Shown in pieces: positions 27,890-64,000 of a DNA stretch of 64,000 nt. Each line of letters starts with the position of its first letter. Position 1 is the first letter of the stretch. The stretch comes from Candidatus Omnitrophota bacterium (GTDB taxonomy: Bacteria > Omnitrophota > Gorgyraeia > Zapsychrales > Zapsychraceae): positions 67,848-131,847 of the forward strand of contig JADFXT010000006.1 of NCBI GenBank assembly GCA_015233405.1, given 5' to 3'. The notes beneath the pieces were generated by a model that made no database searches, was not told the DNA's origin, and saw nothing but the letters and a program-made list of their open reading frames with translations. Position numbers and translations under genes: made by a program.

Positions 27890-28825
27890 TTATTTTCTAA
27901 AAACTTTCAAAATCTTTTGAACTGTGCGCTTAACACCGCGCCCATCAATCAACTGTTTGGCCTTTTGAGATTTTTTTTCCCACAAGCGTTCATCTTCCCA
28001 CAAATTTAGAAGTTGTTGTTGTAGATGCCGTGGATTCATGCTGCCGCGCAAGCTTCCACCTTGCCTTAAGAAAACCGGTATAAAATTCTCTTCCTGTTTC
28101 GACTGAGGAAAAACTATCGTCGGGACTCCTAACCTGGTAAATTCCATCAAAGACGTTCCGCCGTTTGTCAGGCCGACTTTGGTCTTGGCCATGATTTCCG
28201 GTAAACGCTCAGGATTTCTTAAAATAGTCACCGGTCCTTTTTTATGGCCTACAAATTCAGAAATTTTTCCTTTCACCATTGGACCGACGACAAAAATAAT
28301 TTTTTTATTCTTATAAAAATCATCCTCTACAAAAATTTTTAACAACTTATCTAAATATCCTCGGCTATCTTTTCCACCTAAAACCGCAACCGCATCAAAT
28401 GTTCGTTTTTTCTGTACAGTTTGCTTTAAGATTTCTTTGCGGATAAGCGCAAACTTTAATACCTTGGCTCCGCCGCGCAGATTGACCGTCTGCGTTATCA
28501 CTCCATCTGTTTTAGAATACCAATCCAACCCGACGGTCGGCCGATTCTGTTTCTTGAGCCATTTAAAGACTTCTGGTTGAAAATCCGTGTGAACATCGAC
28601 GATCACGCCATCAAAAATCTTATTCTTTATAGAAGCAAGTCCTGTGACAAAATGGTCATATCCCGAAATAGCTTTCGATAAACCGATGTTTCTATCATCG
28701 GGAATAATAGCTATAGCCGTAACCTTCTGTTTTTCCACACGTAGACAATCTATAACAAACTTACTGCGTTTAAGATGTCCCATTCCCCATTTTTGGGAAC
28801 CAGCGGCCAGATAGAGAATATTCAT
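27890..28825 (-). CDS. PseG/SpsG-like nucleotide-sugar hydrolase (GT28 C-terminal-domain family)
   Basis: The ORF track opens with TTG at 28834. ATG 28825 (MNILYLAAGSQKWGMGHLKRS) overlaps the upstream stop (TGATG). It has a G-x-GH-x2-R N-terminus and the C-lobe GLTNGGTSLMEFTRLGVPTIVFP. Confidence 0.55.
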   Translation of the reverse strand: MNILYLAAGSQKWGMGHLKRSKFVIDCLRVEKQKVTAIAIIPDDRNIGLSKAISGYDHFVTGLASIKNKIFDGVIVDVHTDFQPEVFKWLKKQNRPTVGLDWYSKTDGVITQTVNLRGGAKVLKFALIRKEILKQTVQKKRTFDAVAVLGGKDSRGYLDKLLKIFVEDDFYKNKKIIFVVGPMVKGKISEFVGHKKGPVTILRNPERLPEIMAKTKVGLTNGGTSLMEFTRLGVPTIVFPQSKQEENFIPVFLRQGGSLRGSMNPRHLQQQLLNLWEDERLWEKKSQKAKQLIDGRGVKRTVQKILKVFRK

Positions 28826-29874
28826 CAACGCCAATCCCCTTTTTGTACCAAAGCCGGGGCCTCTAAGTCACGAGTGGCTTTCTTGCCCAAAATTTTCTCC
28901 AACAAAGACGGAGCGAGACCTGTTCCTGGTCGAAGAACCGATAAATTCTCTGAAGTAAAAATATCTCCCTTTTTCATATTCCTGACGATAAAGCATGATC
29001 GCCGCCCGCGCCGCAAATGAACTTTTTCCACAGCCTGTACTTGCTTAACATGATTGCCCAAAGCCTGTTCGCATTCCCGCATGGCTCGCACCATACTTTC
29101 AAATTCATCCATATTAAGAGCAAAGTCGTGGTCCGGAGACTTCCCGCCGGGTATGGTTACATGTTTCTCATATAAATTCGCACCCAAAGCTGTCGCTGCA
29201 ACAGACACCGATATTCCAGACGTATGGTCCGAATACCCAACTGGGCAACGAAATGCGTTCCTCAATGTATCGAGACATCTTAAATGGACCGAATCAAATG
29301 GTGCAGGATACTGAATCCCACAATGAAAAAGAGCTATTCGCTGTTCGCCAACGCCTTCTATGGCGCTCACCGCTTGCCGAATCTCTTTTAAATTCGCCAT
29401 TCCCGTCGATAAAAGGATCGGAAGCTTCAGTTTCCCTAGATGTTTTAAAAGAGGGATATGCGTGATTTCAAACGAAGCGACTTTCATCGCCGGGACTCCT
29501 ATGTGCGCCAACTGATCAGCACTTTCTTCATCAAAAGGCGTTGCCAAGAAATCGATTTTATTTTCCTTACAACAATTTTTTAATTCTTTCAGCCAAGAGA
29601 CCGGCAATTCCATGTCTTTATAAAGCGCATAAACATTCTTACCGAATTTGGCAAATTTATCCTTGAGCCTTGTTTCCGGGATATCTATATTCGCTGCGAT
29701 TTTATCCGCCTTAAACAACTGGAATTTTACCGCATTGGCCCCCGCTTTCGCTGCCCGTCGGATCATCTCAAACGCCCGGGATTTTTTTTGATCATGGTTC
29801 GAACCGATTTCCGCGATAATATAGCAAGAATCAACGCCCACATGATGTTTGCCTATATAAAAACTTTTTCTCAT
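28825..29874 (-). CDS. nonulosonic acid synthase, NeuB/PseI/LegI/SpsE family (copy 1)
   Basis: 349 aa. Motifs: YIIAEIGSNHDQK, ANAVKFQ, GYSDHTSG, YEKHVT. A C-terminal SAF domain is present (RRSCFIVRNMKKGDIFTSENLSVLRPGTG). Confidence 0.85.
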   Translation of the reverse strand: MRKSFYIGKHHVGVDSCYIIAEIGSNHDQKKSRAFEMIRRAAKAGANAVKFQLFKADKIAANIDIPETRLKDKFAKFGKNVYALYKDMELPVSWLKELKNCCKENKIDFLATPFDEESADQLAHIGVPAMKVASFEITHIPLLKHLGKLKLPILLSTGMANLKEIRQAVSAIEGVGEQRIALFHCGIQYPAPFDSVHLRCLDTLRNAFRCPVGYSDHTSGISVSVAATALGANLYEKHVTIPGGKSPDHDFALNMDEFESMVRAMRECEQALGNHVKQVQAVEKVHLRRGRRSCFIVRNMKKGDIFTSENLSVLRPGTGLAPSLLEKILGKKATRDLEAPALVQKGDWR

Positions 29875-30629
29875 TTTTTCACCACTTGGTCTTCTTTTAA
29901 AGATTTCAATAATCCCTCATTCCTGACAATGTGCGCATTGATTTCATAGATATCTCGTCGATTATCAAGAAAACTTTTAATATCCTCTGCCGTGAAATGG
30001 GGCTTACCCTTCCGGGCAAATTCTTCAAGAATGGTTTTAATCACAATAAAATCTTCCTCTTCATCCAGCGTAAAACGATATTTGCTGTCATCCGTCTTAT
30101 TGCCTAGAGTAATCTTTTTAAAGAGTTCCGGATGTTTATGAAGATATTGCGTCACATGCTCCCGCTCGGATTTCAGTTTGGATTCTTTCCAGGCAACTTC
30201 CAAACTCTTAAAAGAAAGAACTTCACAATCCAGCCCTTCGGCAAAGGTCGGACCTGTATGGACATAATCCACCTTATCTTTCTCATAAACACCAATCGCG
30301 CCGTCGCAAATTGCCGGATCTAATAGCGGGCTATCACCGGTAATCCGGACAACCGTCTGTGGCTGATATTTCTTTGCCGCCTGATAAAATCTATCCAACA
30401 CATCTTCTTCGCTGCCGCGGTAAACATCAAAGCCAATACTTTTTACAAAATCATGCAAAGGGTCGCTTTCCGCATCCACAGATGTCGCGACGACAACCTT
30501 ATCAATTTTCTTAGACATGCTTAAACGTTCCAACAAATGCTGGATCATGGGCTTTCCCAGAACAGTCTTAAGGACTTTTCCGGGTAACCGTGACGACGAC
30601 ATCCGAGCTTGAACAATGGCTAAAATCAT
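29871..30629 (-). CDS. SpsF/FlmC-type cytidylyltransferase (CTP_transf_3)
   Basis: 252 aa. N-terminus ILAIVQARMSSSRLPGKVL. Confidence 0.7.
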   Translation of the reverse strand: MILAIVQARMSSSRLPGKVLKTVLGKPMIQHLLERLSMSKKIDKVVVATSVDAESDPLHDFVKSIGFDVYRGSEEDVLDRFYQAAKKYQPQTVVRITGDSPLLDPAICDGAIGVYEKDKVDYVHTGPTFAEGLDCEVLSFKSLEVAWKESKLKSEREHVTQYLHKHPELFKKITLGNKTDDSKYRFTLDEEEDFIVIKTILEEFARKGKPHFTAEDIKSFLDNRRDIYEINAHIVRNEGLLKSLKEDQVVKK

Positions 30630-31940
30630 TTATGTTAACCTTTTAAATCCCGCGTGGCACACAGGACCTTTTAATAAAGATTTTAACGTGCCCGACTTGA
30701 TGGCCTTCGCTATTTTCTTAAAAGTCTCATCCGAAGCTTTTAAATATTGATCAACAATCACCGTCGTATGAGCATAAGACACATAAACAGCATTGGTCGC
30801 CAAAAAACCTTTTTTAAGCATCTCCTGCGTAAAAATAGTTTTAATAACTAGCGGCTCTTCTTCTTTGATGGCTAGAATCGGAATCGACGGAAAACCGACG
30901 ATCTCAATGTTTAAAGAATACTTCTTAAAAATATCGGTTAATCGTTTACCAATATATTCCCCGACCTTGATCAAATGCTGCGCAACGTTATTCCGCTCAA
31001 AAATCTTGATGACTTCAAGCGCCGCGACAAAACCAATGCGTTCGGTCCAATAGGTGCTGCTGATAAACGTATTCTGGGCGGACTCCATCACGTCTTTTCT
31101 GCCGATGATCGCCGAAATAGGATACCCATTGCCCAACGCTTTTCCTAAAATGGCAATGTCAGGATTAACACCATAGAGCAAATGCATCCCGCCGGTCGTC
31201 ACGCGAAATCCTGACGAAACCTCGTCGAAGATAAGGACCGCTCCGATATCTTTGGCAATAGCCTTCACTTCTTTGAGGAAAACGACATCAACCTTTTTAT
31301 GCCGACCGACTTCCATGATAATGACGCCGATCTCATCTTTGTTTTTGGCAACCAGTTCTTTTAACTCTTCGATTTGCCCGTAACGAAACGGCAATGAAGT
31401 TCCTTTAAGAGCCCTTGGAACGCCTAAAGGTTCCAAGCCGGGCAACAATTGCCCGTCGAGATTCTTGTCATCAGCCAAATTCGCCGCCAAATACCAATCA
31501 TGCCAGCCATGATAACCGCAAAAAGCCACCTTATCTTTTTTGGAATAAGCCCGACCAATGCGAACTCCTATCGCGCAAGCCTCTCCGCCTGTCTTTGAGA
31601 ACCTTGCCATTTGTGCCCAAGGATGTAGCTTAATAAGCTTTTGAGCCAATTCAAATTCTTCATAACAATTTAGCGTCGACATATTCCCATCTTTAATCGC
31701 CTTCATGACCGCTCTGTTAACTTGCGGATGAGCATAACCTAAAATATTCGCGCCAATGCCCATAATGCTCATATCGATATACTTTTTGCCATCTAAGTCC
31801 CAAACTTCAACGCCTTTGGCTTTTTTGTAATAGGCCGGCCATTGGTCCGGAAGAAACATCTCCGGCCTCTTAGATAACAACTGTGTCCCGCCGGGAATAA
31901 GTTGTTTGGCTTGCTTATATAATGCTTGTGATTTTCCCAT
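30630..31940 (-). CDS. class III PLP aminotransferase (glutamate-1-semialdehyde aminomutase-like)
   Basis: Motifs: LIPGGTQLLSKRP, FDEVSSGFR, ILGKALGNGYPISA. I set the start at ATG 31940 (GGAG 6 nt upstream) rather than 31952. Confidence 0.8.
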   Translation of the reverse strand: MGKSQALYKQAKQLIPGGTQLLSKRPEMFLPDQWPAYYKKAKGVEVWDLDGKKYIDMSIMGIGANILGYAHPQVNRAVMKAIKDGNMSTLNCYEEFELAQKLIKLHPWAQMARFSKTGGEACAIGVRIGRAYSKKDKVAFCGYHGWHDWYLAANLADDKNLDGQLLPGLEPLGVPRALKGTSLPFRYGQIEELKELVAKNKDEIGVIIMEVGRHKKVDVVFLKEVKAIAKDIGAVLIFDEVSSGFRVTTGGMHLLYGVNPDIAILGKALGNGYPISAIIGRKDVMESAQNTFISSTYWTERIGFVAALEVIKIFERNNVAQHLIKVGEYIGKRLTDIFKKYSLNIEIVGFPSIPILAIKEEEPLVIKTIFTQEMLKKGFLATNAVYVSYAHTTVIVDQYLKASDETFKKIAKAIKSGTLKSLLKGPVCHAGFKRLT

Positions 31941-31942
31941 GA

Positions 31943-32803
31943 TTAGCTCCATTTATAAGGCAATAAAATATCCTCATCTTGAATGGTTAAACAATTTAAA
32001 CGTTCTTTTAAACTTAAAATCTTATTAAGAAACTCTAGATTCTTAACATGCTCCTTTAAATGTTCCAAACTATCAACGCCGACAATCACCTTATCCAGAT
32101 AGGGATTAGATACGGCATAATTCAAACAAAGCGCACTCAGCGGAATCTGATGGCCCTGCGAAATTTTTCGCAAATCCTCAAGAGGCTTTCTCGCTTTGAA
32201 CAATTTTTCCGATAACTGATCCGGATCTAAATAAACAAGTCCTTGAAGAAAAATGGACCGCGCGTGCAATTCGACATTCATTTCTTTTAGCGTCGGGAAA
32301 TAGGGTTCAAATCTTCTGTCGAAGACGCTGTAAGGAACCTGAAGAATATCCGGGATAATTTTCTTCTTTAACAATAATTCAAGTTCTTCGGGAAGATACA
32401 GCGAAAAACCGGCTTTCCGAAGAAGCCCCTCGTTCTTTAAACGCTCTAAAGATTTCCAAAGATCAGCATTATTTCTAAAATCATCAAACCGATGGAATAA
32501 ATACCCGTAAAGGTTCTTCGATCTTAATCGGCGAAGGGATTCCTTAAAGATCTCCTCCACATCTTGGCCTTGACTTGTAAATTTGGAAACAATATCAAAA
32601 TCAAATTTCTCTTGGTTGATAAATTCTCCAATAACCGCCTCGCTTGTCCCATACGCCGCAGACGTGTCTAAAGTCTTAATGCCTTCCCGACGAGCAAATT
32701 CAAGAATTTTAAAAGCCTCATCCTTTGAAACCTGTCCGGTTTTATTGGCAATGCCATACGAACAACCAAATTGTACGGTTCCAAGCCCGAGCTTATGGAT
32801 CAT
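31943..32803 (-). CDS. aldo/keto reductase
   Basis: 286 aa. Motifs: LGLGTVQFG..YG and LDTSAAYG. Length and pattern are typical of AKRs. Confidence 0.75.
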   Translation of the reverse strand: MIHKLGLGTVQFGCSYGIANKTGQVSKDEAFKILEFARREGIKTLDTSAAYGTSEAVIGEFINQEKFDFDIVSKFTSQGQDVEEIFKESLRRLRSKNLYGYLFHRFDDFRNNADLWKSLERLKNEGLLRKAGFSLYLPEELELLLKKKIIPDILQVPYSVFDRRFEPYFPTLKEMNVELHARSIFLQGLVYLDPDQLSEKLFKARKPLEDLRKISQGHQIPLSALCLNYAVSNPYLDKVIVGVDSLEHLKEHVKNLEFLNKILSLKERLNCLTIQDEDILLPYKWS

Positions 32804-34952: not shown

Positions 34953-35684
34953 TTAAACCTTAGAAAGAAATTTCTTATAAAGGCACTGTGCCATTGCAAG
35001 ATCCACCACATCATCGATATCAACAGATCGTTCTCTCGGCATCACATACGCCGCGGTCTTTTTAGGAATCAGCCGCTTTCCATTCAAAAAACAATCTGTT
35101 TTAACTAAATAAACCGCACCATTAAGGCTATATAACGGTGGCAATTGTTGTCTTTGCGTCGGGACTTTTGCATTTTTTATCGCGTTTTCCACAAGACCTT
35201 CTGAGTTGATCTTCTTCATCCATAGAGGATGCTCCTGCGCTTCCTTGACGCTGACAACGCCGTCTACTTTCCCATTTTTTTTGATCAACAAACGCACACA
35301 ATTATCAATATCTTCCGCCGTTCTTAAAGGCGACGTTGGCTGTAATAACATAAGAAATTCCGGCACATACCCTTCATGTTCCTCATACCATCGCAGCGCA
35401 TGAACAATACTTTCATCAGACGGTGATTTGTCGGACGCTAATTCTTTAGGCCTCAAGAAAGGGATTTCCGCGCCGTATTTTTTTGCTACTTTTGCTATTT
35501 TTAAAGAATCGGTCGAGACAGCGATCCTCGAGAGAAATCGGCTCTTTTTAGCCGCATCGATAGTCCAGGCAATCAACGGCTTGCCGCAAAAGTCCGTAAT
35601 GTTCTTGTCCGGAATCCCTTTGCTGCCGCCTCGCGCTAAAATCAAACCTAAAATTTCGATATTTTTTTTCATGAGTATTCTCAC
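34953..35684 (-). CDS. CMP-nonulosonic acid synthetase (acylneuraminate cytidylyltransferase family, copy 1)
   Basis: 243 aa. Motifs: LGLILARGGSKGIPDKNI, LLQPTSPLR, NGAVY. Confidence 0.8.
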   Translation of the reverse strand: MRILMKKNIEILGLILARGGSKGIPDKNITDFCGKPLIAWTIDAAKKSRFLSRIAVSTDSLKIAKVAKKYGAEIPFLRPKELASDKSPSDESIVHALRWYEEHEGYVPEFLMLLQPTSPLRTAEDIDNCVRLLIKKNGKVDGVVSVKEAQEHPLWMKKINSEGLVENAIKNAKVPTQRQQLPPLYSLNGAVYLVKTDCFLNGKRLIPKKTAAYVMPRERSVDIDDVVDLAMAQCLYKKFLSKV

Positions 35685-37973: not shown

Positions 37974-37980
37974 AGGTTTT

Positions 37981-41906: not shown

Positions 41907-41913
41907 TACTTTC

Positions 41914-58203: not shown

Positions 58204-60000
58204 TTAATTATTCGCTGTTTTGATAAACCGGTTATAAAGCCCGTTGGGAACGACAATCAAATCCTCATGATTGCCTGACTCCACGATTTTTCCATCATCT
58301 AAAACAAGAATTTTATCCGCATTCTTTATTGTAGAAAGCCGATGCGTAATGGCAATGATCGTTCTGTCGCCGATAAAATTATCAATAGCTTTCATAATTT
58401 CTTTTTCAGACAATGCGTCTAAATTGCTGGTGGCCTCATCCCAAATAAGGATTCGGGGATTTAAAATAAAAGCGCGGGCAATGGCAATGCGCTGGCGCTG
58501 GCCTACGGACAATTTAACGCCGCGGTCCCCTAAGATAGTATTAAGACCCTGCGGCAAATTTCTGATAAAAGAATCCGCGTAAGCAGCTTTCGCGGCTTCC
58601 ATAATTTTCTCCTCAGAAACCTGCGGATTCCCTAACCCAATATTAAAAGCAACGGTGTCATTAAATAAAAATGTGTCCTGACTTACGATCCCGATTTGTT
58701 TACGCCAGAAATCCGTATCGATTTGGTTCAAATCACAGCCGTCGACCTTAATTTTCCCTTCCTGAGGAGAATAAAACTTTAAAAGCAGATCAATAATGGT
58801 TGTCTTGCCGGCCCCGGAAGAGCCCACCAAAGCAATAACCTTTCCAAAGGGAATAACAAAGGAAAGCTTTTGTAAAACGATCCTGTCTTTTTCGCTATAG
58901 CGAAAATAAACATCATCAAATTCAATCGTTTCGTTAAATATCTTTTTCTCAGCGGGGCTCTGCGATTTTGCATCTTCTTCTGAGACATAAAAATCTTTCG
59001 AGAAAGAAGAGACCGCCTTAATCAGATGCCGGTTGGCGGAGAAATTGACAAAGAAATCATTAAAACTGGACACGACTGGCATGAGCCGGGATAAAACAGC
59101 AATAAAAAGAATGACGCTCTGAATCCACAACGACGTCGAGGCGTCGAATAAAAATGATCCCACAAATACTAAGGCGATCAGAGACAGCATGCTGATAAAC
59201 TGCACGGATGCCTTGACGGCTTCCGTTACAACCACAATATTAAAACGCATCTGTAAAAGCTCTTCATTCTCAAAAGTATGTTTTTGCGCAAAGAACGATT
59301 CTTTAACAAACTGCCTGATCGTTTTCATGCCGGAGATCGTCTCGAGCAATAAAGAATTACGATTTTCTAACCCCGTCTTAAAATCAGCACCCACCTTTCT
59401 TGCCATAAGATGGAACCGGGTCATCAACAAAGACGTAATCGCTAGAATCAATAACGCAAGGCCTGTCATCGCCCAAGAAAGTTTGAACATGAAGAATAAA
59501 AGAACAATCCCAATAAAAGTCTTTGGAATAATATCAATCACGCGGGAAGCGAAAGAAGCAACGACGAGACAATGATTCCCGAGGATAGAATAAAAATAGC
59601 CCCCTTTCCTTTCATAAAGAGATTGGAGGGGAATCTTTAAAAGTTTTTTGTATATTTTATCCGATAAATAAACGCCTGTCTTTTTCTGCATAATTCCGCT
59701 GGCCCAAAGACTGAGAAAAAAACAAATGAATTGTAAAAGAACGGCGAGAGCAAAAAAGCCTAATACGATTCTAACCCGTACAACAGTAGGAAACTGATGA
59801 AGATAATTGGTAAAAATGCCAACGACATTTCCGATCATCGGCAATTTAATCGTAACATTCGGAACATCTTGAATGATCTGAAGAAACGGGACCAACAATC
59901 CGATCCCGAAGATTTCCGTGACCGTCGTCAAAAGACTAATCAAAACAGAAGCAACAATCAGAAAAGGATATTGAGCGATTATAGAAAAAAGAAACGCCAT
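58204..60000 (-). CDS. ABC exporter half-transporter (fused TMD-NBD, MsbA/PglK-like)
   Basis: 598 aa with 6 N-terminal TM helices. Walker A GSSGAGKTT, signature LSVGQRQR, Walker B ILIWDEATS. Confidence 0.9.
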   Translation of the reverse strand: MAFLFSIIAQYPFLIVASVLISLLTTVTEIFGIGLLVPFLQIIQDVPNVTIKLPMIGNVVGIFTNYLHQFPTVVRVRIVLGFFALAVLLQFICFFLSLWASGIMQKKTGVYLSDKIYKKLLKIPLQSLYERKGGYFYSILGNHCLVVASFASRVIDIIPKTFIGIVLLFFMFKLSWAMTGLALLILAITSLLMTRFHLMARKVGADFKTGLENRNSLLLETISGMKTIRQFVKESFFAQKHTFENEELLQMRFNIVVVTEAVKASVQFISMLSLIALVFVGSFLFDASTSLWIQSVILFIAVLSRLMPVVSSFNDFFVNFSANRHLIKAVSSFSKDFYVSEEDAKSQSPAEKKIFNETIEFDDVYFRYSEKDRIVLQKLSFVIPFGKVIALVGSSGAGKTTIIDLLLKFYSPQEGKIKVDGCDLNQIDTDFWRKQIGIVSQDTFLFNDTVAFNIGLGNPQVSEEKIMEAAKAAYADSFIRNLPQGLNTILGDRGVKLSVGQRQRIAIARAFILNPRILIWDEATSNLDALSEKEIMKAIDNFIGDRTIIAITHRLSTIKNADKILVLDDGKIVESGNHEDLIVVPNGLYNRFIKTANN

Positions 60001-60003: not shown

Positions 60004-60849
60004 TTATTTCCTCCCCCACACAAAGAATGCTTGGCCCCAGGACTCGTCACAAGCCCACGGATGAGAGCCTTGTTTCCTGCGCTGAGATAAAAGATTTTCA
60101 TAAACTGTCACCAAAGCTCGCTCAAAAGCCGACGGCATAAGCGTAAACGGAAACTCCGGCGAGAAAGAAATGGCCGGAAAAGGATACACTCCGCTGGCCT
60201 TGACGGCTTTTAACCCATTTTTTTGTAAAAGTTTGACATAATAACCGCTATCATAATCATTACGGTAAAGCGGTTTCTTGGTATTCTTTTTTCCCGAATT
60301 TCCTCCGACCGGGGCTTTCTTAAGGACATCATTTACGGGCTTAAAAACTGTTTGCACGCTCGTTTTCTCAGGAACCACATAGGCGGTAAAAACCCCGCCT
60401 TTCTTTAAAACCCGAATTTGCTCCTCGATGATTTTGGAAGGAGTTTTAAAATGCTCCAATAAACCAATACTGGTAATGACATCAAATTCCTCGTCCTCAA
60501 ACGGAAGTTCGTGAGCATCAGCGACAACAAACTGGGCAAGATGCGCGTGCTTATTTTTCTTAAAAATTTCCTCTGCATCCTTTAAAACCTCCGGCACAAT
60601 GTCAACGAGCGTAACAGAATATCCACTCTGTGCAAAAAACGACGATAACGACCCTCGTCCTGCGCCGACTTCTAAACAATGCCCTTTCGACGGGATCTTG
60701 ACGACCTCTTTTAAAAAAGAAAAATGCTGCTGAAACGCTAGTTCGATCTGATTCTGCGGACGTCCTTTACAAAACCAATTCGTCTTTTTGGTTTCTCTTT
60801 TCTTCCAATTCGCCGCAAAACGGCGCACATTATCCTGTTGCGATCTCAA
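60004..60849 (-). CDS. class I SAM-dependent methyltransferase
   Basis: 281 aa. Motifs: LEVGAGRGSLS and ITSIGLLEHF. TTG start within a TTGA overlap with the upstream stop. Confidence 0.8.
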   Translation of the reverse strand: MRSQQDNVRRFAANWKKRETKKTNWFCKGRPQNQIELAFQQHFSFLKEVVKIPSKGHCLEVGAGRGSLSSFFAQSGYSVTLVDIVPEVLKDAEEIFKKNKHAHLAQFVVADAHELPFEDEEFDVITSIGLLEHFKTPSKIIEEQIRVLKKGGVFTAYVVPEKTSVQTVFKPVNDVLKKAPVGGNSGKKNTKKPLYRNDYDSGYYVKLLQKNGLKAVKASGVYPFPAISFSPEFPFTLMPSAFERALVTVYENLLSQRRKQGSHPWACDESWGQAFFVWGRK

Positions 60850-61817
60850 CGTGAATCCTTTTTTTGAAAATAGTGTTTTAGTTTCTGTGCCATGAAAATC
60901 TCGGTCTTTTTCATCGACTCCACCGTTGCCCCGCCGATATGCGGCGTTAAAATGAGATTGGTGTTTTTGCGTGCATATTGAAAAATGGCCCGAGATTTCA
61001 GATTAAAACTTTTCGCCTCTTCTTCCGCCAAGACATCCAAGGCCGCGCCCTTAAGCTGTCCGGAGCGTAGCGCTTGAATCAACGCTTGTTCCTCCACCAC
61101 TTGCCCGCGGGACGTATTGACCAAATAACTTCCCTTTTTAATATTTCGGAATTCTGCTTTTCCCAATAGCCCGACGGTATTTTCATTAAGGGCCACGTGC
61201 ACAGAAATAATATCGGCATGTTGCAAAAGTTCTTTAAGCGTGCGGCACTGATGGATATTCCGTGGCAAAGATTTCTTAATCAACGGGTCATAGACCAAAA
61301 TCGTCATCCCAAAGGCCGAAGCCAGCCTCGCGACCTTCGTCCCAAGACGACCGTACCCAACAATCCCCAGTGTTTTCCCGCTTAATTCCTCTCCGAAAAA
61401 TAAGTTGCGGTCCCAAAGACCTTTCTGTACAGAATTATGAGCAGCAGGAATTTTTCTTATAAGCGCTAACATCAGCGCGAGCGTAAGCTCGGCGGTAGCT
61501 GCAATATTTTTTAAGAACTTGGTCTCACCTTTTAAAGACAGGACATCCATCCCTTTTGTTTTGGCATAATCGACATCAATATGGTTCGTCCCGGTTGCCG
61601 CTGTTGCAATAACCTTTAACCGTTTAGCCTGGTCAATGACCTGTTTATCAATCTTATGCGCGAAACGGACGATGAGCCCGTCGACATCACAGACTTTTTC
61701 TAATAATTGCCTGCGCGTCAATTTGTCACAAAATGTGACATCCGCGAAACTGTTTAAAAGCAACTTCGCCTCTGGGCAATAACAAAACGATTCCGTATTT
61801 AAAAGACGCGGTCTCAA
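60846..61817 (-). CDS. D-isomer-specific 2-hydroxyacid dehydrogenase (phosphoglycerate-dehydrogenase-like)
   Basis: 323 aa. Motifs: LKVIATAATGTNHIDV, GIVGYGRLGTKVA (NAD), NTSRG, TPHIGG. TTG start 1 nt after the upstream stop. Confidence 0.85.
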   Translation of the reverse strand: MRPRLLNTESFCYCPEAKLLLNSFADVTFCDKLTRRQLLEKVCDVDGLIVRFAHKIDKQVIDQAKRLKVIATAATGTNHIDVDYAKTKGMDVLSLKGETKFLKNIAATAELTLALMLALIRKIPAAHNSVQKGLWDRNLFFGEELSGKTLGIVGYGRLGTKVARLASAFGMTILVYDPLIKKSLPRNIHQCRTLKELLQHADIISVHVALNENTVGLLGKAEFRNIKKGSYLVNTSRGQVVEEQALIQALRSGQLKGAALDVLAEEEAKSFNLKSRAIFQYARKNTNLILTPHIGGATVESMKKTEIFMAQKLKHYFQKKDSR

Positions 61818-61818: not shown

Positions 61819-62538
61819 TCAATTTCTTCCTTTTTTATGAGTAAGGATCAGCTCGGCCATATCAAAATCTTCCTGTGTATCGATATTAATCGAGCTTACG
61901 CGTGACATCAGATATAACAGCGGCTGCTCGCCGACAATTTGGTTCTTCTCCATCAACAAAGCGCGGCTCATCAGATAAATAGCACCATTACGAACGTAAA
62001 CGGCCTTAAAATCCTGACGGCGTTTTAATTTTCCCTGTGCGCAAAACGGGATCAATTGTCCGCGCTTTTCCGTGTACATGATCGACGGATGAACAGAGGC
62101 CCCTTCATAACAAGAAATCAGGCTGTCCTGTTTCCGGCTTAAAAACAACCACACCGCTTGGTCAATATGTTTCGCTGTCCTTAAGGGCGCCGTACACTGA
62201 AGCAACAGGACATGGTCAACTTTCTTTTCAGCCTTTTTTTCCCATTCCTTGACGGCATGTTGTAAGACACCTAACGTCGAAGCTTTATCCGTTGCCAAAC
62301 TCCTCGGACGGATAAAAGGCACTTGTGCCCCACAGCGCCGGGCAATTGCGGCAATATTCTTCGAATCCGTCGAAACAATTGCGTTCTGCCCCCAACGGCT
62401 TTGATGTGCCGCCTCAATGGTATAGGCAATCAAGGGCTTGCCGGCCAACGAAAGGATATTTTTATTTTTGAGTCCTTTCGAGCCGCCGCGCGCCGGAATC
62501 ACGGTCAAAATAGTAGGAAAACAATTTTTGTTTTTCAT
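61819..62538 (-). CDS. neuA: CMP-nonulosonic acid synthetase (acylneuraminate cytidylyltransferase, copy 2)
   Basis: 239 aa. Motifs: LTVIPARGGSKGLKNKNI, LLQCTAPLR, NGAIY. Confidence 0.85.
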   Translation of the reverse strand: MKNKNCFPTILTVIPARGGSKGLKNKNILSLAGKPLIAYTIEAAHQSRWGQNAIVSTDSKNIAAIARRCGAQVPFIRPRSLATDKASTLGVLQHAVKEWEKKAEKKVDHVLLLQCTAPLRTAKHIDQAVWLFLSRKQDSLISCYEGASVHPSIMYTEKRGQLIPFCAQGKLKRRQDFKAVYVRNGAIYLMSRALLMEKNQIVGEQPLLYLMSRVSSINIDTQEDFDMAELILTHKKGRN

Positions 62539-62553: not shown

Positions 62554-63747
62554 TTAATACATCATTTTCTTTTGAATCGATAATGGGCACTTCGCCAAAA
62601 TGTCGACGATCTTTTTTCCCGCTTTTCCGTCGCCATAGAGCGCATCTTTAAGATACTTCCCGTGCTTTAATTGTTTCTTGATGGCTTGGGCGATTTCACC
62701 TGCGTTATAACCGACGTCCAGAATATTTCTACCCCGCTCCCGGCCCGCTTGACGTGTGCCAATATTGACCGAAGGCACTCCTAAAAATGCGCCTTCCCGG
62801 ATCGCACTACTGGAATTTCCGATCAAACAAGCGCAATTGTTAATGAGAATTGCATAATCTTCGACGGAGAAGTTACGATAAAAATGAATTTGTTTATTTC
62901 CATGCTGTTCGCGGTAGATCCGTAACCCCTTAGAGATATCATCAGACCCTGCATCCACATTCGGCCAAAGCCAGACGGTCTGCATGCCGACCTGTTCAAC
63001 GGCGCTAAGCGTTGCTTGAATCTGGTCAAATCCCTGGCCGTATTCCGTCGTGACCGGATGCTGCAGAACAACCATGTAAGGTTTAGAAAAATCGATCCTG
63101 CAGCCTGTCCCGCCGTAACGGGTAAGGCGGCTGATCTCTTTAAGATTGACCGTCGTCAATATATCCATGGCCGGACATCCGACCTGATAAATCGACTTGG
63201 GATCCTCTCCCATCTTAATAAGGCGCTGACGGCTTAACGCTGTCGTCGGAAAATGAATATGCGCCAATTTGGTGATCGCATGGCGAACGCTTTCATCAAT
63301 GGAGCCCGTCACCTCACCGCCTTGTGTATGCGCTAAAGGGATATTCATATAACTCGAGGCTACCGCTGTCGCTAGTGTTTCATAACGGTCCGCAACAGTT
63401 AACACAATATCCGGTTTTAAGTTTTCGAAAATGGTCGCCAGCTCAATGATCCCCAAGCCCGTTGATTTCGCCATTGTCGTCGGATTTTCGCCTTCAATAA
63501 CGATATAAACCGTCGCGTTCGGCTCAAATCCATCCTTACGAATAATATCAATGACGTTGCCGAACCGGTAAAGAATAGCAGAAGCCCCAACAACCAATTG
63601 AAGCTCCAAATCAGGATGCGCTTGGATGGACTTTAAAACGCTTTTGATACGACCATAATTCGCCCGACTGTGGACGACGACACAAATTTTTCTTTTGCCT
63701 ACGGTCTTCTTTGTCTTTTTTAGACTGACGCTGAGATTATTTTTCAC
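62554..63747 (-). CDS. neuC: UDP-N-acetylglucosamine 2-epimerase (hydrolysing), NeuC family (copy 2)
   Basis: 397 aa. Motifs: ICVVVHSRANYG, VADRYE, HTQGGEVTGSIDESVRHAITKLAHIHF. Confidence 0.8.
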   Translation of the reverse strand: MKNNLSVSLKKTKKTVGKRKICVVVHSRANYGRIKSVLKSIQAHPDLELQLVVGASAILYRFGNVIDIIRKDGFEPNATVYIVIEGENPTTMAKSTGLGIIELATIFENLKPDIVLTVADRYETLATAVASSYMNIPLAHTQGGEVTGSIDESVRHAITKLAHIHFPTTALSRQRLIKMGEDPKSIYQVGCPAMDILTTVNLKEISRLTRYGGTGCRIDFSKPYMVVLQHPVTTEYGQGFDQIQATLSAVEQVGMQTVWLWPNVDAGSDDISKGLRIYREQHGNKQIHFYRNFSVEDYAILINNCACLIGNSSSAIREGAFLGVPSVNIGTRQAGRERGRNILDVGYNAGEIAQAIKKQLKHGKYLKDALYGDGKAGKKIVDILAKCPLSIQKKMMY

Positions 63748-64000
63748 TTGTTATTTCCCCATTTTCCGATATAAATTTTCCTTAAATTTTCTTCGCTGTC
63801 CGTTAACGGACGATTCGAAACGCCCCAGGCCTTTTCACATTCATCTCTATATCGAGCCAGCTCGGCAAAATCCTCCGGTAACGTCGACATCTTTTGGTCC
63901 GGCCCGGGCAGGTTCCGGTCGATCGTAAAATGTTTCTCTACATAACAGGCCCCTAACACAACCGCCATTTTTGCCAATTCGACACCTAAACTGTGGTCGG
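63744..64000 (-). CDS. NeuB-family nonulosonic acid synthase (copy 3), N-terminus off window; C-terminus lacks a SAF domain
   Basis: My own translation across the window edge gives ...DHSLGVELAKMAVVLGACYVEKHFTIDRNLPGPDQKMS.... The 'M' that opens the ORF-track entry is an internal TTG (Leu). The protein ends ...SEENLRKIYIGKWGNNK*, about 60 aa short of copies 1 and 2. Confidence 0.8.
   Translation of the reverse strand, partial: DHSLGVELAKMAVVLGACYVEKHFTIDRNLPGPDQKMSTLPEDFAELARYRDECEKAWGVSNRPLTDSEENLRKIYIGKWGNNK

What the first reader, a model, noticed from the sequence alone, without database searches (positions are those of the whole stretch)
27890..64000. Three nonulosonic-acid synthase genes and duplicated NeuC/NeuA: up to three NulO pathways in one locus, with no canonical N-acetyltransferase
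The window holds three NeuB-family genes (28825..29874, 50202..51230, 63744..64000). It also holds two hydrolysing 2-epimerases (40719..41906, 62554..63747) and two NeuA-type plus one SpsF-type cytidylyltransferase. Further components are a PseG/SpsG-like hydrolase, a PseC-like aminotransferase, a LegC/PglE-like aminotransferase and a PtmE-like CBS nucleotidyltransferase. In established Pse, Leg and Neu pathways these roles are normally present once each. The PseG/SpsG + SpsE + SpsF trio also recalls the Bacillus sps-type legionaminic acid route. I see no left-handed beta-helix (PglD/LegH-type) acetyltransferase anywhere in the window. The only acyl-transfer candidates are one Eis-like GNAT, one FemAB-like protein and two ATP-grasp ligases. 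This suggests the N5/N7 substituents are not simple acetyl groups.
Basis: partly seen in the sequence, partly recalled or inferred. Interest (0 to 1): 0.65.

Follow-up and report, generated by a model that had tools for sequence, protein, structure and literature searches.

The report
Three sialic-acid-like sugar pathways, one locus
A surface-sugar gene cluster from an uncultured Omnitrophota bacterium holds three different, non-redundant pathways for nine-carbon sialic-acid-like sugars and lacks the usual acetyl-adding enzymes, so its sugars probably carry unusual side groups; this is an interesting variant of known biology, not a new kind of system.

Summary
Window 27890-64000 holds three NeuB-family synthases, two hydrolysing 2-epimerases, three CMP-transferases, a PseG-like protein, a PseC-type and a LegC-type aminotransferase, and a PtmE-like nucleotidyltransferase. 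All lie on the minus strand in one polysaccharide locus of a Candidatus Omnitrophica MAG.

The copies are deep paralogues (31-44% identity), not duplicates. They sort into three sets of hydrolase, synthase and cytidylyltransferase:
- Pse-like: NeuB1, with the Pse-type Phe and a PseC equivalog.
- Leg-like: NeuB2, a LegC equivalog and a LegG-like NeuC1.
- Neu-like: SAF-less NeuB3 and a GNE-like NeuC2.

No hexapeptide or PseH-type acetyltransferase occurs in any frame of the window, although related loci have them. The canonical 4,6-dehydratases are also missing.

In their place are:
- two ATP-grasp ligases;
- an ACP/KAS III/ketoreductase/GNAT set;
- a WbuX-HisH-HisF amidotransferase (acetamidino formation);
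- an SDR most similar to PDB 6VO6.

Multi-NulO genomes and non-acetyl N-acyl groups are already known, and I found another three-NeuB contig (L093). Verdict: a real, moderately interesting new variant.

The parts
63744..64000 (-). NeuB3: C-terminal 84 aa of a NeuB-family synthase cut by the window end. It has no SAF domain. Neu-like module.
   Evidence: PF03102 61 bits. Frame 63744-63998. H215 and E234/H236 equivalents are present (DHSLG...VEKHFT). The best relative is the 274-aa SAF-less NeuB of L007, 50% over all 84 aa.
62554..63747 (-). NeuC2: UDP-sugar-hydrolysing 2-epimerase, GNE/NeuC-like. Neu-like module.
   Evidence: TIGR03568 405 against cutoff 236. Best PDB match is the human GNE epimerase domain 4ZHT at 250 bits, against LegG-type 5XVS/5ZLR at 222. 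Orthologues (60% identity or more) have a DegT gene within 8 kb in only 3 of 19 loci.
61819..62538 (-). NeuA2: CMP-NulO synthetase of the Neu-like module.
   Evidence: PF02348. Best PDB matches are CMP-Neu5Ac synthetases 6IFD (127 bits) and 1EYR.
60846..61817 (-). D-2-hydroxyacid dehydrogenase (PGDH / glyoxylate-reductase-like). A recurrent partner of NeuC2-type modules; role unknown.
   Evidence: PF02826 and PF00389. Present in 10 of 19 NeuC2-type loci.
60004..60849 (-). SAM methyltransferase, recurrent in NeuC2-type modules.
   Evidence: PF08241 85 bits. Homologues at 41-47% identity sit next to NeuC2 orthologues in L014 and L021.
58204..60000 (-). ABC exporter (MsbA-like half transporter).
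   Evidence: PF00005 and PF00664. Found near NeuC2-type modules in 9 of 19 loci.
56860..58194 (-). unk444: GT-B protein, paralogue of unk445. Candidate NulO transferase of the Neu-like module.
   Evidence: 43.5% identical to unk445 over the full length. Weak hits to NF046086 BFO_1060 family (43 bits, cutoff 200) and to Glyphos_transf.
55973..56857 (-). Methyltransferase.
   Evidence: PF08241.
54975..55961 (-). SDR328: extended SDR that overlaps LegC. It is not a LegB/PglF/PseB-type dehydratase. Candidate NDP-sugar C4 dehydrogenase.
   Evidence: Best PDB match 6VO6 at 180 bits; the next best is 92 bits or less. The motif STCSNYG lacks the Asp/Glu of 4,6-dehydratases. TIGR04180 LegB scores only 53 against a cutoff of 475.
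53795..55000 (-). LegC-family 4-aminotransferase. Leg-like module.
   Evidence: TIGR04181 495 against cutoff 420.
53082..53798 (-). PHP-domain phosphoesterase, sitting where LegH would normally be.
   Evidence: PF02811.
52090..53109 (-). ATP-grasp ligase (PRK12767 type). Candidate N7-acylating enzyme of the Leg-like module.
   Evidence: NF009402 316 against cutoff 218. PF15632 and PF02655.
51227..52105 (-). SDR292: NAD-dependent epimerase/reductase.
   Evidence: PF01370 120 bits.
50202..51230 (-). NeuB2: Neu/Leg-type NulO synthase with SAF domain. Leg-like module.
   Evidence: TIGR03569 470 against cutoff 400. Motif KIPSGEI has Gly at the specificity position. Clusters with NeuBs from loci that carry WbuX and DegT.
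48284..50167 (-). AsnB-type glutamine amidotransferase.
   Evidence: TIGR01536 460 against cutoff 267.
41914..48287 (-). Tailoring and transfer genes between NeuB2 and NeuC1: a polytopic membrane protein (46698-48287), methyltransferase, radical SAM enzyme, GFO/IDH/MocA oxidoreductase, GT2, and a sugar-epimerase-like TIM barrel.
40719..41930 (-). NeuC1: LegG-type NDP-sugar-hydrolysing 2-epimerase.
   Evidence: TIGR03568 459. Best PDB match is the GDP/UDP-diNAcBac 2-epimerase 5ZLR at 298 bits, against GNE at 179.
39374..40711 (-). unk445 (HQL24_05340): GT-B protein. Candidate NulO transferase of the Leg-like module.
   Evidence: AlphaFold model pLDDT 93 with a GT-B fold. The HP motif is nearly invariant. 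Relatives match Glyphos_transf, Capsule_synth and polysialyltransferase families.
36744..39338 (-). WbuX (36744-37973), HisH-like (37981-38586) and HisF/WbuZ-like (38583-39338): an N-acetyl-sugar amidotransferase system that makes acetamidino groups.
   Evidence: TIGR03573 346 against cutoff 203. TIGR01855 207. TIGR00735 298 and TIGR03572 275.
35681..36742 (-). PtmE-like CBS plus sugar-1-phosphate nucleotidyltransferase.
   Evidence: PF00571 and PF00483.
34953..35684 (-). NeuA1: CMP-NulO synthetase, assigned to the Leg-like module by position next to PtmE.
   Evidence: PF02348. Best PDB matches 6IFD (141 bits) and 9FTB.
32800..34950 (-). Fusion of an RmlD-like reductase domain (aa 1-300) and a PseC aminotransferase (aa 317-710). 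Pse-like module.
   Evidence: TIGR03588 502 against cutoff 423; TIGR01214 163 against cutoff 224. The N-terminal half's best PDB matches are dTDP-4-dehydrorhamnose reductases. More than 120 homologous fusions exist.
30630..32803 (-). Aldo/keto reductase (31943-32803) and class-III aminotransferase (30630-31952): conserved accessory pair of this Pse-like variant.
   Evidence: Syntenic in L051, L134, L135 and L136. Fused to the PseC fusion in P0130.
29871..30629 (-). SpsF/KdsB-like cytidylyltransferase of the Pse-like module.
   Evidence: PF02348 132 bits. Best PDB match 6OEW at 130 bits. 72% identical to its L051 counterpart.
28825..29874 (-). NeuB1: Pse/SpsE-clade synthase with SAF domain.
   Evidence: Below both the NeuB and PseI cutoffs (327 against 400; 316 against 340). 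Best PDB match SpsE 1VLI at 207 bits. Motif KVASFEI has Phe as in C. jejuni PseI. Sits in the clade with CjPseI and BsSpsE.
27890..28834 (-). PseG/SpsG-like GT28-fold protein, putative NDP-sugar hydrolase.
   Evidence: PF04101 25 bits; TIGR03590 37.5 against cutoff 153. The same position is occupied in L051, L134 and L136.
20536..27869 (-). Putative acyl-donor factory linked to the Pse-like module: methyltransferase, RraA-type aldolase, L-amino-acid-ligase-type ATP-grasp (25057-26262), Amidohydro_2, methyltransferase, DmpG-type aldolase (21680-23692), and a class I/II aminotransferase.
   Evidence: The same gene series follows the module in L134.
15060..20300 (-). FemAB-like protein (19170-20300), truncated DegT-like protein (18190-19209), ACP (17930-18172), KAS III (16928-17905), 3-oxoacyl reductase (16248-17033) and Eis-like GNAT (15060-16247): an acyl-ACP based N-acylation set.
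   Evidence: The ACP is 58.5% identical, KAS III 68% and the SDR 54% to the ACP-FabH-SDR-GNAT::CT block beside the NeuB1 orthologue in L052.

Best explanation
The region is the upstream two-thirds of one co-directional, lipid-linked surface-polysaccharide locus of an uncultured Omnitrophota bacterium. An initiating phosphoglycosyltransferase, WecG, GT4, a Wzy-like protein and GT2 lie at 1-8 kb. The region encodes three separate CMP-nonulosonate modules, each with its own sugar-nucleotide hydrolase, PEP-condensing synthase and cytidylyltransferase.

1. Pse-like module (27890-34950): RmlD-like::PseC fusion, AKR, class-III aminotransferase, SpsF-like cytidylyltransferase, NeuB1, PseG-like protein.
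2. Leg-like module (34953-55961): SDR328, LegC, PHP, ATP-grasp, SDR292, NeuB2 and tailoring genes, then LegG-type NeuC1, a GT-B transferase candidate, WbuX/HisH/HisF, PtmE and NeuA1.
3. Neu-like module (55973-64000 and beyond): SAF-less NeuB3, GNE-like NeuC2, NeuA2, a 2-hydroxyacid dehydrogenase, methyltransferases, an ABC exporter and a second GT-B transferase candidate.

Inferred chemistry:
- N5 keeps the acetyl group of GlcNAc. In at least one sugar it is converted to acetamidino by WbuX/HisH/HisF.
- The 4-amino group (future N7) of the Pse-like and Leg-like intermediates is not acetylated by PseH or LegH. It is acylated instead by ATP-grasp carboxylate-amine ligases and/or by the acyl-ACP-dependent GNAT. 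The donors would be made by the adjacent aldolase/aminotransferase and KAS III/ketoreductase genes.

Shown: gene identities, non-redundancy, absence of canonical acetyltransferases and dehydratases in the window, and conservation of the variant modules elsewhere.

Inferred: the product stereochemistry, which enzyme acylates which amine, and the role of the two GT-B proteins as NulO transferases.
For: - Family assignments above curated cutoffs: PseC, LegC, NeuB2, both NeuC copies, WbuX and the ATP-grasp NF009402.
- Deep divergence of the paralogues and separate clades in the tree.
- Specificity residue: Phe in NeuB1 and Gly in NeuB2, following the rule in PMC7371886.
- NeuC1 is closest to LegG-type 5ZLR. 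NeuC2 is closest to GNE.
- NeuC2-type modules elsewhere usually lack any DegT gene (3 of 19) but keep NeuB (18 of 19) and NeuA (17 of 19).
- No beta-helix or PseH homologue in the window, with a positive control in related loci.
- The Pse-like variant with the fusion recurs without any GNAT but with an L-amino-acid-ligase-type ATP-grasp in L134 and L136. L134 also has the RraA, Amidohydro_2 and HMGL genes. L051 and L135 carry a GNAT instead.
- The ACP/KAS III/KR block sits beside a NeuB1 orthologue and a GNAT::cytidylyltransferase fusion in L052.
- Two paralogous GT-B proteins lie one per module. They carry an HP motif and have a weak link to the T. forsythia Pse/Leg-derivative transferase family.
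Against: - Neither a PseB/PglF/LegB-type 4,6-dehydratase nor any N-acetyltransferase is in the window. The contig continues for tens of kb that I could not read, so ordinary enzymes may be encoded nearby.
- L134 and L136 do have a PseB-like gene directly upstream of the fusion, which the window lacks.
- NeuB1 is below the cutoffs of both the PseI and NeuB equivalog models, and the PseG-like hit is weak.
- NeuB3 is only an 84-aa fragment.
- The Leg-versus-Neu call for NeuB2 rests on context, because no characterised LegI sequence was available for the tree.
- No enzyme of the ATP-grasp, GNAT395 or FemAB set has been shown to act on a NulO precursor.
- Three conserved genes (RmlD-like domain, AKR, class-III aminotransferase) have no assigned step.
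Confidence: 0.6

Rival explanations
1. Ordinary pathways, incomplete view. The locus makes standard Pse5Ac7Ac and Leg5Ac7Ac (plus an acetamidino form) and Neu5Ac. The missing dehydratases and PseH/LegH acetyltransferases lie outside the 64-kb window. The ATP-grasp, GNAT and FemAB genes decorate other sugars of the polysaccharide.
For: - The contig is 141 kb and the window ends inside NeuB3.
- L134 and L136 have a PseB-like gene right next to the fusion, so this variant does use PseB.
- Relatives L051 and L135 use a GNAT.
- Canonical Leg clusters place LegB-LegC-LegH upstream of NeuB, as in L093.
Against: - In the window the slots where PseH (between AKR and the class-III aminotransferase) and LegH (after LegC) normally sit are closed or filled by PHP plus an ATP-grasp.
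- L134 and L136 show the Pse-like module from its PseB-like gene to the ATP-grasp without any acetyltransferase.
- The ATP-grasp and aldolase series is syntenic with the module in L134, and the ATP-grasp also follows the module in L136.
Confidence: 0.28
2. Simple redundancy: the three NeuB, two NeuC and three cytidylyltransferase genes are duplicates that serve one pathway.
For: All belong to the same Pfam families.
Against: - Pairwise identities of 31-44% are as low as those to characterised enzymes of different pathways.
- The genes fall in different clades and have different specificity residues.
- They have different best solved relatives and different partner aminotransferases.
Confidence: 0.02
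3. Assembly or binning chimera: the Neu-like module at 56-64 kb, whose closest relatives are in Proteobacteria, Methylomirabilota and Desulfobacterota, was joined artificially to an Omnitrophota locus.
For: - The best NeuC2 relatives (69%) are not Omnitrophota.
- GC rises to 0.445-0.47 in the last 4 kb, against about 0.41 elsewhere.
Against: - Strand, GC skew and tight or overlapping gene spacing are continuous across the whole window.
- unk444 in the Neu-like module is a 43.5% paralogue of unk445 in the Leg-like module. Almost no other relatives exist among 1.84 billion representatives, which ties the two parts to one genome.
- Horizontal acquisition explains the phylogeny equally well.
Confidence: 0.04
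4. One of the NeuB homologues makes a different ulosonic or keto-acid sugar, not a nonulosonate. For example, NeuB3 together with the 2-hydroxyacid dehydrogenase might do so.
For: - The SAF-less clade is uncharacterised.
- A 2-hydroxyacid dehydrogenase recurs in the module with no known role.
- E134 is replaced by Asp in the closest homologue, L007.
Against: It is flanked by a bona fide hydrolysing UDP-GlcNAc 2-epimerase and a CMP-sialate-synthetase-like enzyme. The metal and PEP ligands are kept in the fragment.
Confidence: 0.06

Closest known systems
Campylobacter jejuni NCTC 11168: Pse and Leg pathways in the flagellar glycosylation locus, plus Neu5Ac for LOS (three NeuB paralogues, cjNeuB1-3)
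   Same: One organism holds Neu-, Leg- and Pse-type synthases (PMC7371886). The Leg route uses a PtmE-type nucleotidyltransferase, LegC, LegG, LegI and LegF. WbuX-like enzymes (PseA/PtmG) give acetamidino forms (PMC5378307; pathway details from my own knowledge of Schoenhofen et al. 2009).
   Different: In C. jejuni the Neu genes lie in a separate LOS locus, and the acceptors are flagellins served by Maf transferases. Here all three sit in one polysaccharide locus with no Maf. PseB, PseH, LegB and LegH are present in C. jejuni but absent from the window.
Bacillus subtilis sps legionaminic acid route (SpsM, C, D, G, E, F; PMC7439481)
   Same: NeuB1's best solved relative is SpsE (207 bits). The cytidylyltransferase is SpsF/KdsB-like rather than NeuA-like, and the hydrolase is a GT28-fold SpsG/PseG-like protein rather than NeuC.
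   Different: - There is no SpsM-type dehydratase and no SpsD GNAT.
- The aminotransferase is a PseC equivalog fused to an RmlD-like domain.
- There is an extra AKR and class-III aminotransferase.
- NeuB1 has Phe, as in PseI.
Tannerella forsythia CMP-Pse5Am7Gra / CMP-Leg-derivative loci with the adjacent transferase Tanf_01245 / TFUB4_00887 (BFO_1060 family; PMC5420450, PMC5378307)
   Same: - A 442-445 aa transferase with an HP motif sits next to the NulO genes, and a methyltransferase lies between them in strain UB4.
- The N5 substituent is acetimidoyl and the N7 acyl group is not acetyl.
- The genes for the non-acetyl groups are unknown there too.
   Different: Sequence similarity is marginal (43 bits against a cutoff of 200). 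T. forsythia has one NulO per strain and keeps PseB/C/H/G/I/F.
Shewanella oneidensis sfmABCDE flagellin-modification cluster (PMC3765264)
   Same: A NeuB-like protein is combined with a 3-oxoacyl-ACP reductase, a methyltransferase and an ATP-grasp ligase. Clear PseH, PseG, PseI and PseF orthologues are lacking.
   Different: It is a flagellin system with Maf proteins, a single NulO-like sugar and a TPP enzyme. Gene order is not shared.
Leptospira NulO cluster (PMC3438082) and PDB 6NCS (290-aa NeuB) / 6OEW (cytidylyltransferase)
   Same: NeuB3 is SAF-less like the 290-aa NeuB homologue 6NCS, and 6OEW is the closest solved relative of the SpsF-like cytidylyltransferase. From memory, both structures are from Leptospira, which has more than one NulO synthase in one cluster; neither point was checked here.
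   Different: Leptospira has two pathways, not three, and its tailoring genes differ. I did not compare gene content in detail.
PDB 6VO6/6VO8. From memory this is C. jejuni Cj1427, the GDP-D-glycero-D-manno-heptose C4 dehydrogenase; its function is described in PMC10680097 and PMC7949155.
   Same: SDR328 matches it over the full length (180 bits). Both lack the Asp/Glu acid-base pair of 4,6-dehydratases.
   Different: Cj1427 feeds epimerases and reductases of heptose synthesis. Here the SDR overlaps a LegC-type aminotransferase. I could not verify with the tools that 6VO6 is Cj1427.

Membership tests
NeuB / NulO synthase family (PF03102) | NeuB TIM-barrel domain with metal and PEP ligands (Nm numbering K129, E134, H215, E234, H236) | tested here: met
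   All three match PF03102 (268, 314 and 61 bits). The ligands align in NeuB1 and NeuB2. H215 and E234/H236 are visible in the NeuB3 fragment.
NeuB / NulO synthase family (PF03102) | C-terminal SAF (antifreeze-like) domain supplying R314 | tested here: met
   Met for NeuB1 and NeuB2 (PF08666, with R aligned). Not met for NeuB3, which ends after the barrel. SAF-less NeuBs are common: about 30% of UniProt sequences (PMC8208679).
Pseudaminic acid pathway (PseB, C, H, G, I, F) | PseB inverting 4,6-dehydratase (Polysacc_synt_2, TIGR03589) | tested here: not met
   No ORF reaches it (best 34 bits against a cutoff of 408). tblastn with the PseB-like proteins of L051, L134 and L136 finds only weak generic SDR matches. 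It may lie outside the window.
Pseudaminic acid pathway (PseB, C, H, G, I, F) | PseC aminotransferase (TIGR03588) | tested here: met
   502 bits against a cutoff of 423.5, residues 317-710 of the fusion.
Pseudaminic acid pathway (PseB, C, H, G, I, F) | PseH GNAT N-acetyltransferase | tested here: not met
   No TIGR03585 or Acetyltransf_3 hit in any ORF. tblastn with the L051 GNAT and the L052 GNAT domain finds nothing in the window.
Pseudaminic acid pathway (PseB, C, H, G, I, F) | PseG UDP-sugar hydrolase (TIGR03590) | tested here: inconclusive
   37.5 bits against a cutoff of 153.6; PF04101 25 bits. The position is conserved in L051, L134 and L136.
Pseudaminic acid pathway (PseB, C, H, G, I, F) | PseI synthase (TIGR03586) with Phe at the C2-specificity position | tested here: inconclusive
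   316 bits against a cutoff of 340, so below it. However, Phe is present (KVASFEI versus CjPseI KIASFEA) and NeuB1 sits in the clade with CjPseI and SpsE.
Pseudaminic acid pathway (PseB, C, H, G, I, F) | PseF cytidylyltransferase (TIGR03584) | tested here: not met
   The module's cytidylyltransferase (29871-30629) scores 29.6 against a cutoff of 205.7 and is KdsB/SpsF-like.
Legionaminic acid pathway (C. jejuni GDP route: PtmE, LegB, C, H, G, I, F) | LegB / PglF-type 4,6-dehydratase | tested here: not met
   SDR328 scores 53 on TIGR04180 against a cutoff of 475. It lacks the acid-base dyad and resembles 6VO6 instead.
Legionaminic acid pathway (C. jejuni GDP route: PtmE, LegB, C, H, G, I, F) | LegC aminotransferase (TIGR04181) | tested here: met
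   495.5 against a cutoff of 420.
Legionaminic acid pathway (C. jejuni GDP route: PtmE, LegB, C, H, G, I, F) | LegH / PglD left-handed beta-helix N-acetyltransferase | tested here: not met
   No Hexapep Pfam hit. The six-frame pattern scan is negative, with a positive control in related loci.
Legionaminic acid pathway (C. jejuni GDP route: PtmE, LegB, C, H, G, I, F) | LegG hydrolysing 2-epimerase, LegI synthase, LegF CMP-transferase and PtmE nucleotidyltransferase | tested here: met
   - NeuC1: TIGR03568 459 bits, closest to LegG-type 5ZLR.
- NeuB2: TIGR03569 470 against 400, with Gly at the specificity site.
- NeuA1: NeuA family.
- CBS plus NTP_transferase.
The Leg-versus-Neu specificity of NeuB2 is inferred from context only.
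Neu5Ac pathway (NeuC, NeuB, NeuA) | UDP-GlcNAc-hydrolysing 2-epimerase, synthase and CMP-synthetase adjacent, with no 4-aminotransferase | tested here: met
   NeuB3-NeuC2-NeuA2 are contiguous. NeuC2 is closest to GNE. Orthologous modules mostly lack DegT. The substrate was not tested, and the genes upstream of NeuB3 were not seen.
Bacillus subtilis sps Leg route | SpsM dehydratase, SpsC, SpsD GNAT, SpsG, SpsE and SpsF | tested here: not met
   SpsE-, SpsF- and SpsG-like proteins are present. No SpsM-type dehydratase and no SpsD-type GNAT were found.
BFO_1060 family NulO-derivative transferases (NF046086) | Profile score above the cutoff; conserved C-terminal domain with HP motif | tested here: inconclusive
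   unk444 scores 43 bits against a cutoff of 200, and unk445 has no hit. The HP motif is nearly invariant in the family alignment and the fold is GT-B.

The most novel reading that the evidence does not exclude
Both diamino-sugar modules are uncharacterised biosynthetic variants.

(a) The widespread 'RmlD-like::PseC + AKR + class-III aminotransferase + SpsF-like CT + NeuB + PseG-like' module makes a Pse-like nonulosonate that carries an extra modification, for example a third amino group introduced by oxidation and omega-transamination. Its amine is acylated by an L-amino-acid-ligase-type ATP-grasp with a custom gamma-hydroxy amino or keto acid built by the adjacent aldolases. This would give a genetic basis for the many non-acetyl N-acyl NulOs whose enzymes are unknown.

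(b) The Leg-like module starts with a Cj1427-like C4 dehydrogenase instead of a 4,6-dehydratase. It would therefore keep the C9 hydroxyl and give a 5,7-diamino-3,5,7-trideoxy, fusaminic-acid-like sugar.
Probability: 0.25. Interest if true: 0.7.

Novelty: new variant of a known kind. Interest (0 to 1): 0.45.

Why it matters
Nonulosonic acids shape how bacterial surfaces are recognised. Dozens of N-acyl variants are known chemically (glyceroyl, hydroxybutyryl, alanyl, glutamyl and others). [quoted passage not shown]

This locus, and the conserved variant modules it revealed in other phyla, give concrete candidates for ATP-grasp-based and acyl-ACP-based N-acylation. It also points to a recurrent but unstudied Pse-like module, with more than 120 RmlD::PseC fusion clusters in public data.

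It also suggests that an Omnitrophota bacterium, a member of a phylum I recall as ultra-small and possibly host-dependent, invests at least 60 kb in a surface glycan with up to three sialic-acid-like sugars. None of this overturns known pathway logic.

Tried and rejected
- **Retrieving the rest of the contig.** I tried exact-protein look-ups, a GTDB genome scan and a metagenome scan. None holds this contig; the best match was 69% identity. What lies upstream of NeuB3 is therefore unknown.
- **PDB-only classification of the synthases.** All pairwise identities are 32-38% and no LegI structure exists, so this was not discriminating. I used a context-labelled NJ tree and the published specificity residue instead.
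- **Position 184 rule** (Asn/Tyr, Tyr or Ser; PMC7371886). NeuB1 has Ile and NeuB2 has Thr, so the rule does not transfer to these distant lineages.
- **Word-based homologue search for unk445.** It found only itself. The exhaustive profile search was needed.
- **First AlphaFold run** with a 2-sequence alignment. It gave pLDDT 49 and was useless. The 55-sequence alignment gave pLDDT 93.
- **Foldseek against PDB.** It gave only a generic GT-B fold with no sialyltransferase-specific match.
- **Homologues of unk621 and unk633** among the large unannotated proteins of related loci. None were found.
- **Verifying that PDB 6VO6 is Cj1427.** This failed.
- **Rejected explanations.** Recent duplication is rejected. 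A flagellin glycosylation island is rejected because there is no Maf or flagellin, while a PGT, WecG, a Wzy-like protein and an ABC exporter are present.

Full report
**Source and setting.** Every gene in the 64-kb window lies on the minus strand. Spacing is tight or overlapping, GC is about 0.41 and GC skew is uniform.

NeuB1 (28825-29874) is 100% identical to MBF0522454.1, annotated 'N-acetylneuraminate synthase family protein [Candidatus Omnitrophica bacterium]', from a 141,180-bp MAG contig. The protein at 39374-40711 is HQL24_05340 / MBF0522464.1.

The low-coordinate end encodes typical lipid-linked polysaccharide machinery:
- the N-terminal part of a Bac_transf-type initiating phosphoglycosyltransferase that runs off the window;
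- WecG/TagA;
- GT4;
- a Wzy-like membrane protein;
- GT2.

No Maf or flagellin is present. This is therefore a cell-surface polysaccharide locus, not a flagellin glycosylation island.

**Check of the observation.** The third NeuB is a C-terminal fragment in frame 63744-63998. It stops shortly after the TIM barrel and so has no SAF domain.

No ORF has a hexapeptide-repeat hit. A six-frame scan with PROSITE PS00101 and a looser four-unit pattern finds nothing in the window. The same scan finds beta-helix genes in 28 related loci. Examples are the classical LegC-LbH pair in L093 and beta-helix genes beside NeuC in L041, L042 and L128.

**Are the copies redundant?** No. The evidence is as follows.
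- Pairwise identities are low: NeuB1/NeuB2 36%, NeuB3 fragment/NeuB2 44%, NeuB3 fragment/NeuB1 37%, NeuC1/NeuC2 31%, NeuA1/NeuA2 38%, and the SpsF-like enzyme against NeuA1 22%.
- These values equal the distances to solved enzymes of different pathways: CjPseI, BsSpsE, NmNeuB and PDB 6NCS.
- In an NJ tree of 120 NeuB homologues labelled by gene context, the three fall apart. NeuB1 sits with CjPseI and BsSpsE. NeuB2 sits with NeuBs from loci that carry WbuX and DegT genes. The closest relative of the NeuB3 fragment, the 274-aa NeuB of L007 (50% over all 84 residues), sits in a separate SAF-less clade whose members all neighbour NeuC2-type epimerases.
- At the position that PMC7371886 links to C2 specificity (Gly in Neu and Leg, Phe in Pse), NeuB1 has Phe (KVASFEI) and NeuB2 has Gly (KIPSGEI).

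**Three modules.** The genes sort one-to-one into three sets of hydrolase, synthase and cytidylyltransferase.

*1. Pse-like module, 27890-34950.*
- It contains a 716-aa fusion of an RmlD-like reductase and a PseC equivalog (TIGR03588 502 against 423.5; the N-terminal half is closest to dTDP-4-dehydrorhamnose reductases).
- It also contains an aldo/keto reductase, a class-III (GSA-aminomutase-like) aminotransferase, an SpsF/KdsB-like cytidylyltransferase, NeuB1 and a weak PseG/SpsG-like GT28-fold protein.
- This is a conserved and widespread variant. More than 120 protein clusters share the fusion at over 50% identity, and one carries the AKR fused on as well.
- The same gene series occurs in L051, L134, L135 and L136.

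*2. Leg-like module, 34953-55961.*
- SDR328 overlaps a LegC equivalog (TIGR04181 495 against 420).
- Next come a PHP phosphoesterase, an ATP-grasp ligase (NF009402 316 against 218), a second SDR and NeuB2 (TIGR03569 470 against 400).
- AsnB and tailoring genes follow.
- NeuC1 is closest to the LegG-type GDP/UDP-diNAcBac 2-epimerase 5ZLR (298 bits, against 179 for GNE).
- The module ends with the GT-B protein unk445, WbuX/HisH/HisF, a PtmE-like CBS-nucleotidyltransferase and NeuA1.

*3. Neu-like module, 55973 to beyond 64000.*
- It contains SAF-less NeuB3, NeuC2, NeuA2, a D-2-hydroxyacid dehydrogenase, methyltransferases, an ABC exporter and the GT-B protein unk444.
- NeuC2 is closest to the human GNE epimerase domain (250 bits, against 222 for LegG).
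- Of 19 loci with a NeuC2 orthologue (60% identity or more) and at least 6 kb on both sides, 18 have a NeuB, 17 a NeuA, 10 the dehydrogenase and 9 the ABC exporter. Only 3 have any DegT-family aminotransferase within 8 kb.
- This fits a mono-amino, ManNAc-derived sugar that needs no N-acetyltransferase.

**What is missing, and what stands in its place.** In the closest relative of the Pse-like module (L051; NeuB 75%, cytidylyltransferase 72%), a PseB-like dehydratase precedes PseC, and an Acetyltransf_3 GNAT sits between the AKR and the class-III aminotransferase. Neither has a homologue anywhere in the window.

L134 and L136 show the module from its PseB-like gene to the ATP-grasp. They have a PseB-like gene, but they also lack any GNAT. 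In both, an L-amino-acid-ligase-type ATP-grasp and a methyltransferase follow the module. L134 additionally carries an RraA-type aldolase, Amidohydro_2 and a DmpG-type aldolase in the same order as window 21680-27869. L135 and L051 represent the GNAT sub-variant.

In the Leg-like module, LegB's place is taken by SDR328. Its only strong solved relative is 6VO6 (180 bits; all others 92 or less), and its active-site motif STCSNYG lacks the Asp/Glu of 4,6-dehydratases. From memory, 6VO6 is C. jejuni Cj1427, the alpha-ketoglutarate-dependent GDP-heptose C4 dehydrogenase (function in PMC10680097 and PMC7949155). I could not verify the PDB code. LegH's place is taken by the PHP protein and an ATP-grasp ligase.

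Further downstream lies an ACP (17930-18172, DSL motif), KAS III (NF006829 271 against 249), a 3-oxoacyl reductase and an Eis-like GNAT. This reproduces the ACP-FabH-SDR-GNAT::cytidylyltransferase block found beside a NeuB1 orthologue in L052/L053. The ACP is 58.5% identical and KAS III 68%.

WbuX (TIGR03573 346 against 203) with HisH- and HisF-like subunits is an N-acetyl-sugar amidotransferase system. It implies an N-acetyl group that is converted to acetamidino.

**Mechanistic reading.**
- From established pathway chemistry, the hexosamine C2 acetamido group becomes N5 of the NulO, and the 4-amino group becomes N7. N5-acetyl is therefore inherited from GlcNAc, and only N7 needs an acyl transfer.
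- My best explanation is that N7 of the Pse-like and Leg-like intermediates is acylated by the ATP-grasp ligases and/or the acyl-ACP-dependent GNAT. The donors would be made by neighbouring genes. N5 would be amidinated in at least one sugar.
- This is inference. No activity was tested, and the roles of the RmlD-like domain, the AKR, the class-III aminotransferase, the PHP protein and the 2-hydroxyacid dehydrogenase remain open.
- Genetic precedent exists in the Shewanella sfm cluster, which combines a NeuB-like protein, a 3-oxoacyl-ACP reductase, a methyltransferase and an ATP-grasp, with no clear PseH/G/I/F (PMC3765264).

**Candidate transferases.** unk445 and unk444 are 43.5% identical paralogues, one in the Leg-like module and one in the Neu-like module.
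- The family is rare: 7 representatives at E of 1e-30 or below, out of 1.84 billion.
- Its members match Glyphos_transf (42 of 55), Capsule_synth (20) and polysialyltransferase (4) families.
- An HP motif is nearly invariant.
- The AlphaFold model (pLDDT 93) has a GT-B fold.
- unk444 weakly hits the BFO_1060 family, the Tannerella forsythia Pse/Leg-derivative transferases. Those are the same size and sit next to their NulO loci.
- They are plausible NulO transferases, but this is not shown.

**How unusual is it?**
- C. jejuni carries all three NeuB types.
- SAF-less NeuBs make up about 30% of database sequences.
- Non-acetyl N-acyl NulOs are chemically well known.
- Among 64 related loci of 15 kb or more, 6 have two NeuB genes. 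One metagenomic contig (L093) has three within 10 kb.

The new elements are the co-location of three complete late-stage sets in one polysaccharide locus, the Omnitrophota host, the lack of both canonical first-step dehydratases and both canonical acetyltransferases in 64 kb, and the conserved but uncharacterised variant modules. I rate this a new variant of a known kind, of moderate interest.

**Limits.**
- The sequence beyond 64000 could not be obtained.
- The tree is neighbour-joining without a characterised LegI.
- NeuB1 and the PseG-like protein are below equivalog cutoffs.
- NeuB3 is a fragment.

Noticed in passing
window 32800-34950; P0121-P0240; L134-L136: The RmlD-like reductase::PseC fusion (about 715 aa) is very common in public data. 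More than 120 clusters share over 50% identity, in Omnitrophica, Phycisphaerales and others. One 1043-aa protein also fuses the aldo/keto reductase. The conserved module 'fusion + AKR + class-III aminotransferase + SpsF-like CT + NeuB + PseG-like' is, to my knowledge, uncharacterised.
   Followed up: partly
window 60846-61817; L001-L133: A D-2-hydroxyacid dehydrogenase recurs beside NeuC2-type NeuB-NeuC-NeuA modules (10 of 19 loci). It often comes with a methyltransferase, an ABC exporter, and in some loci a TPP enzyme or a Maf-like protein. It has no known role in sialic acid synthesis.
   Followed up: partly
window 17930-18172: A small acyl carrier protein gene (about 81 aa, EWDSLGH motif) lies in the 284-nt 'gap' between the KAS III gene and the DegT-like gene. 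It is easily missed with a minimum ORF length of 100 aa.
   Followed up: yes
window 8561-14960: This stretch holds a radical SAM/SPASM protein, a B12-binding radical SAM protein and two 621/633-aa proteins with no Pfam hit. L007 has a 29% relative of the 621-aa protein near its NulO genes. Function unknown.
   Followed up: no
window 21680-23692: A 670-aa protein. Its first 340 aa are a 4-hydroxy-2-oxovalerate (DmpG-type) aldolase above the equivalog cutoff, and its C-terminal 330 aa have no annotation. It is 65% identical to a counterpart in L051 and is also present in L134.
   Followed up: partly
window 18190-19209: A 339-aa protein matches only the central third of the DegT/LegC aminotransferase profile. 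It is a truncated or divergent PLP fold of unknown function, next to a FemAB-like protein.
   Followed up: no
L093 (Ga0316202_10000282), 5989-19338: A metagenomic contig with three NeuB homologues, two NeuA genes, a NeuC, a LegC, a beta-helix acetyltransferase and a PtmE-like gene within 13 kb. It is an independent example of a triple-synthase locus, this one with canonical LegB-LegC-LegH.
   Followed up: partly
window 46698-48287: A 529-aa polytopic membrane protein with no Pfam hit lies between AsnB and a methyltransferase. It could be a GT-C-type glycosyltransferase or a polymerase.
   Followed up: no
window 60001-64000: GC rises to 0.445-0.47 in the last 4 kb, against about 0.41 elsewhere. 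NeuC2's closest relatives are in other phyla (69%). This is compatible with horizontal acquisition of the Neu-like module.
   Followed up: partly
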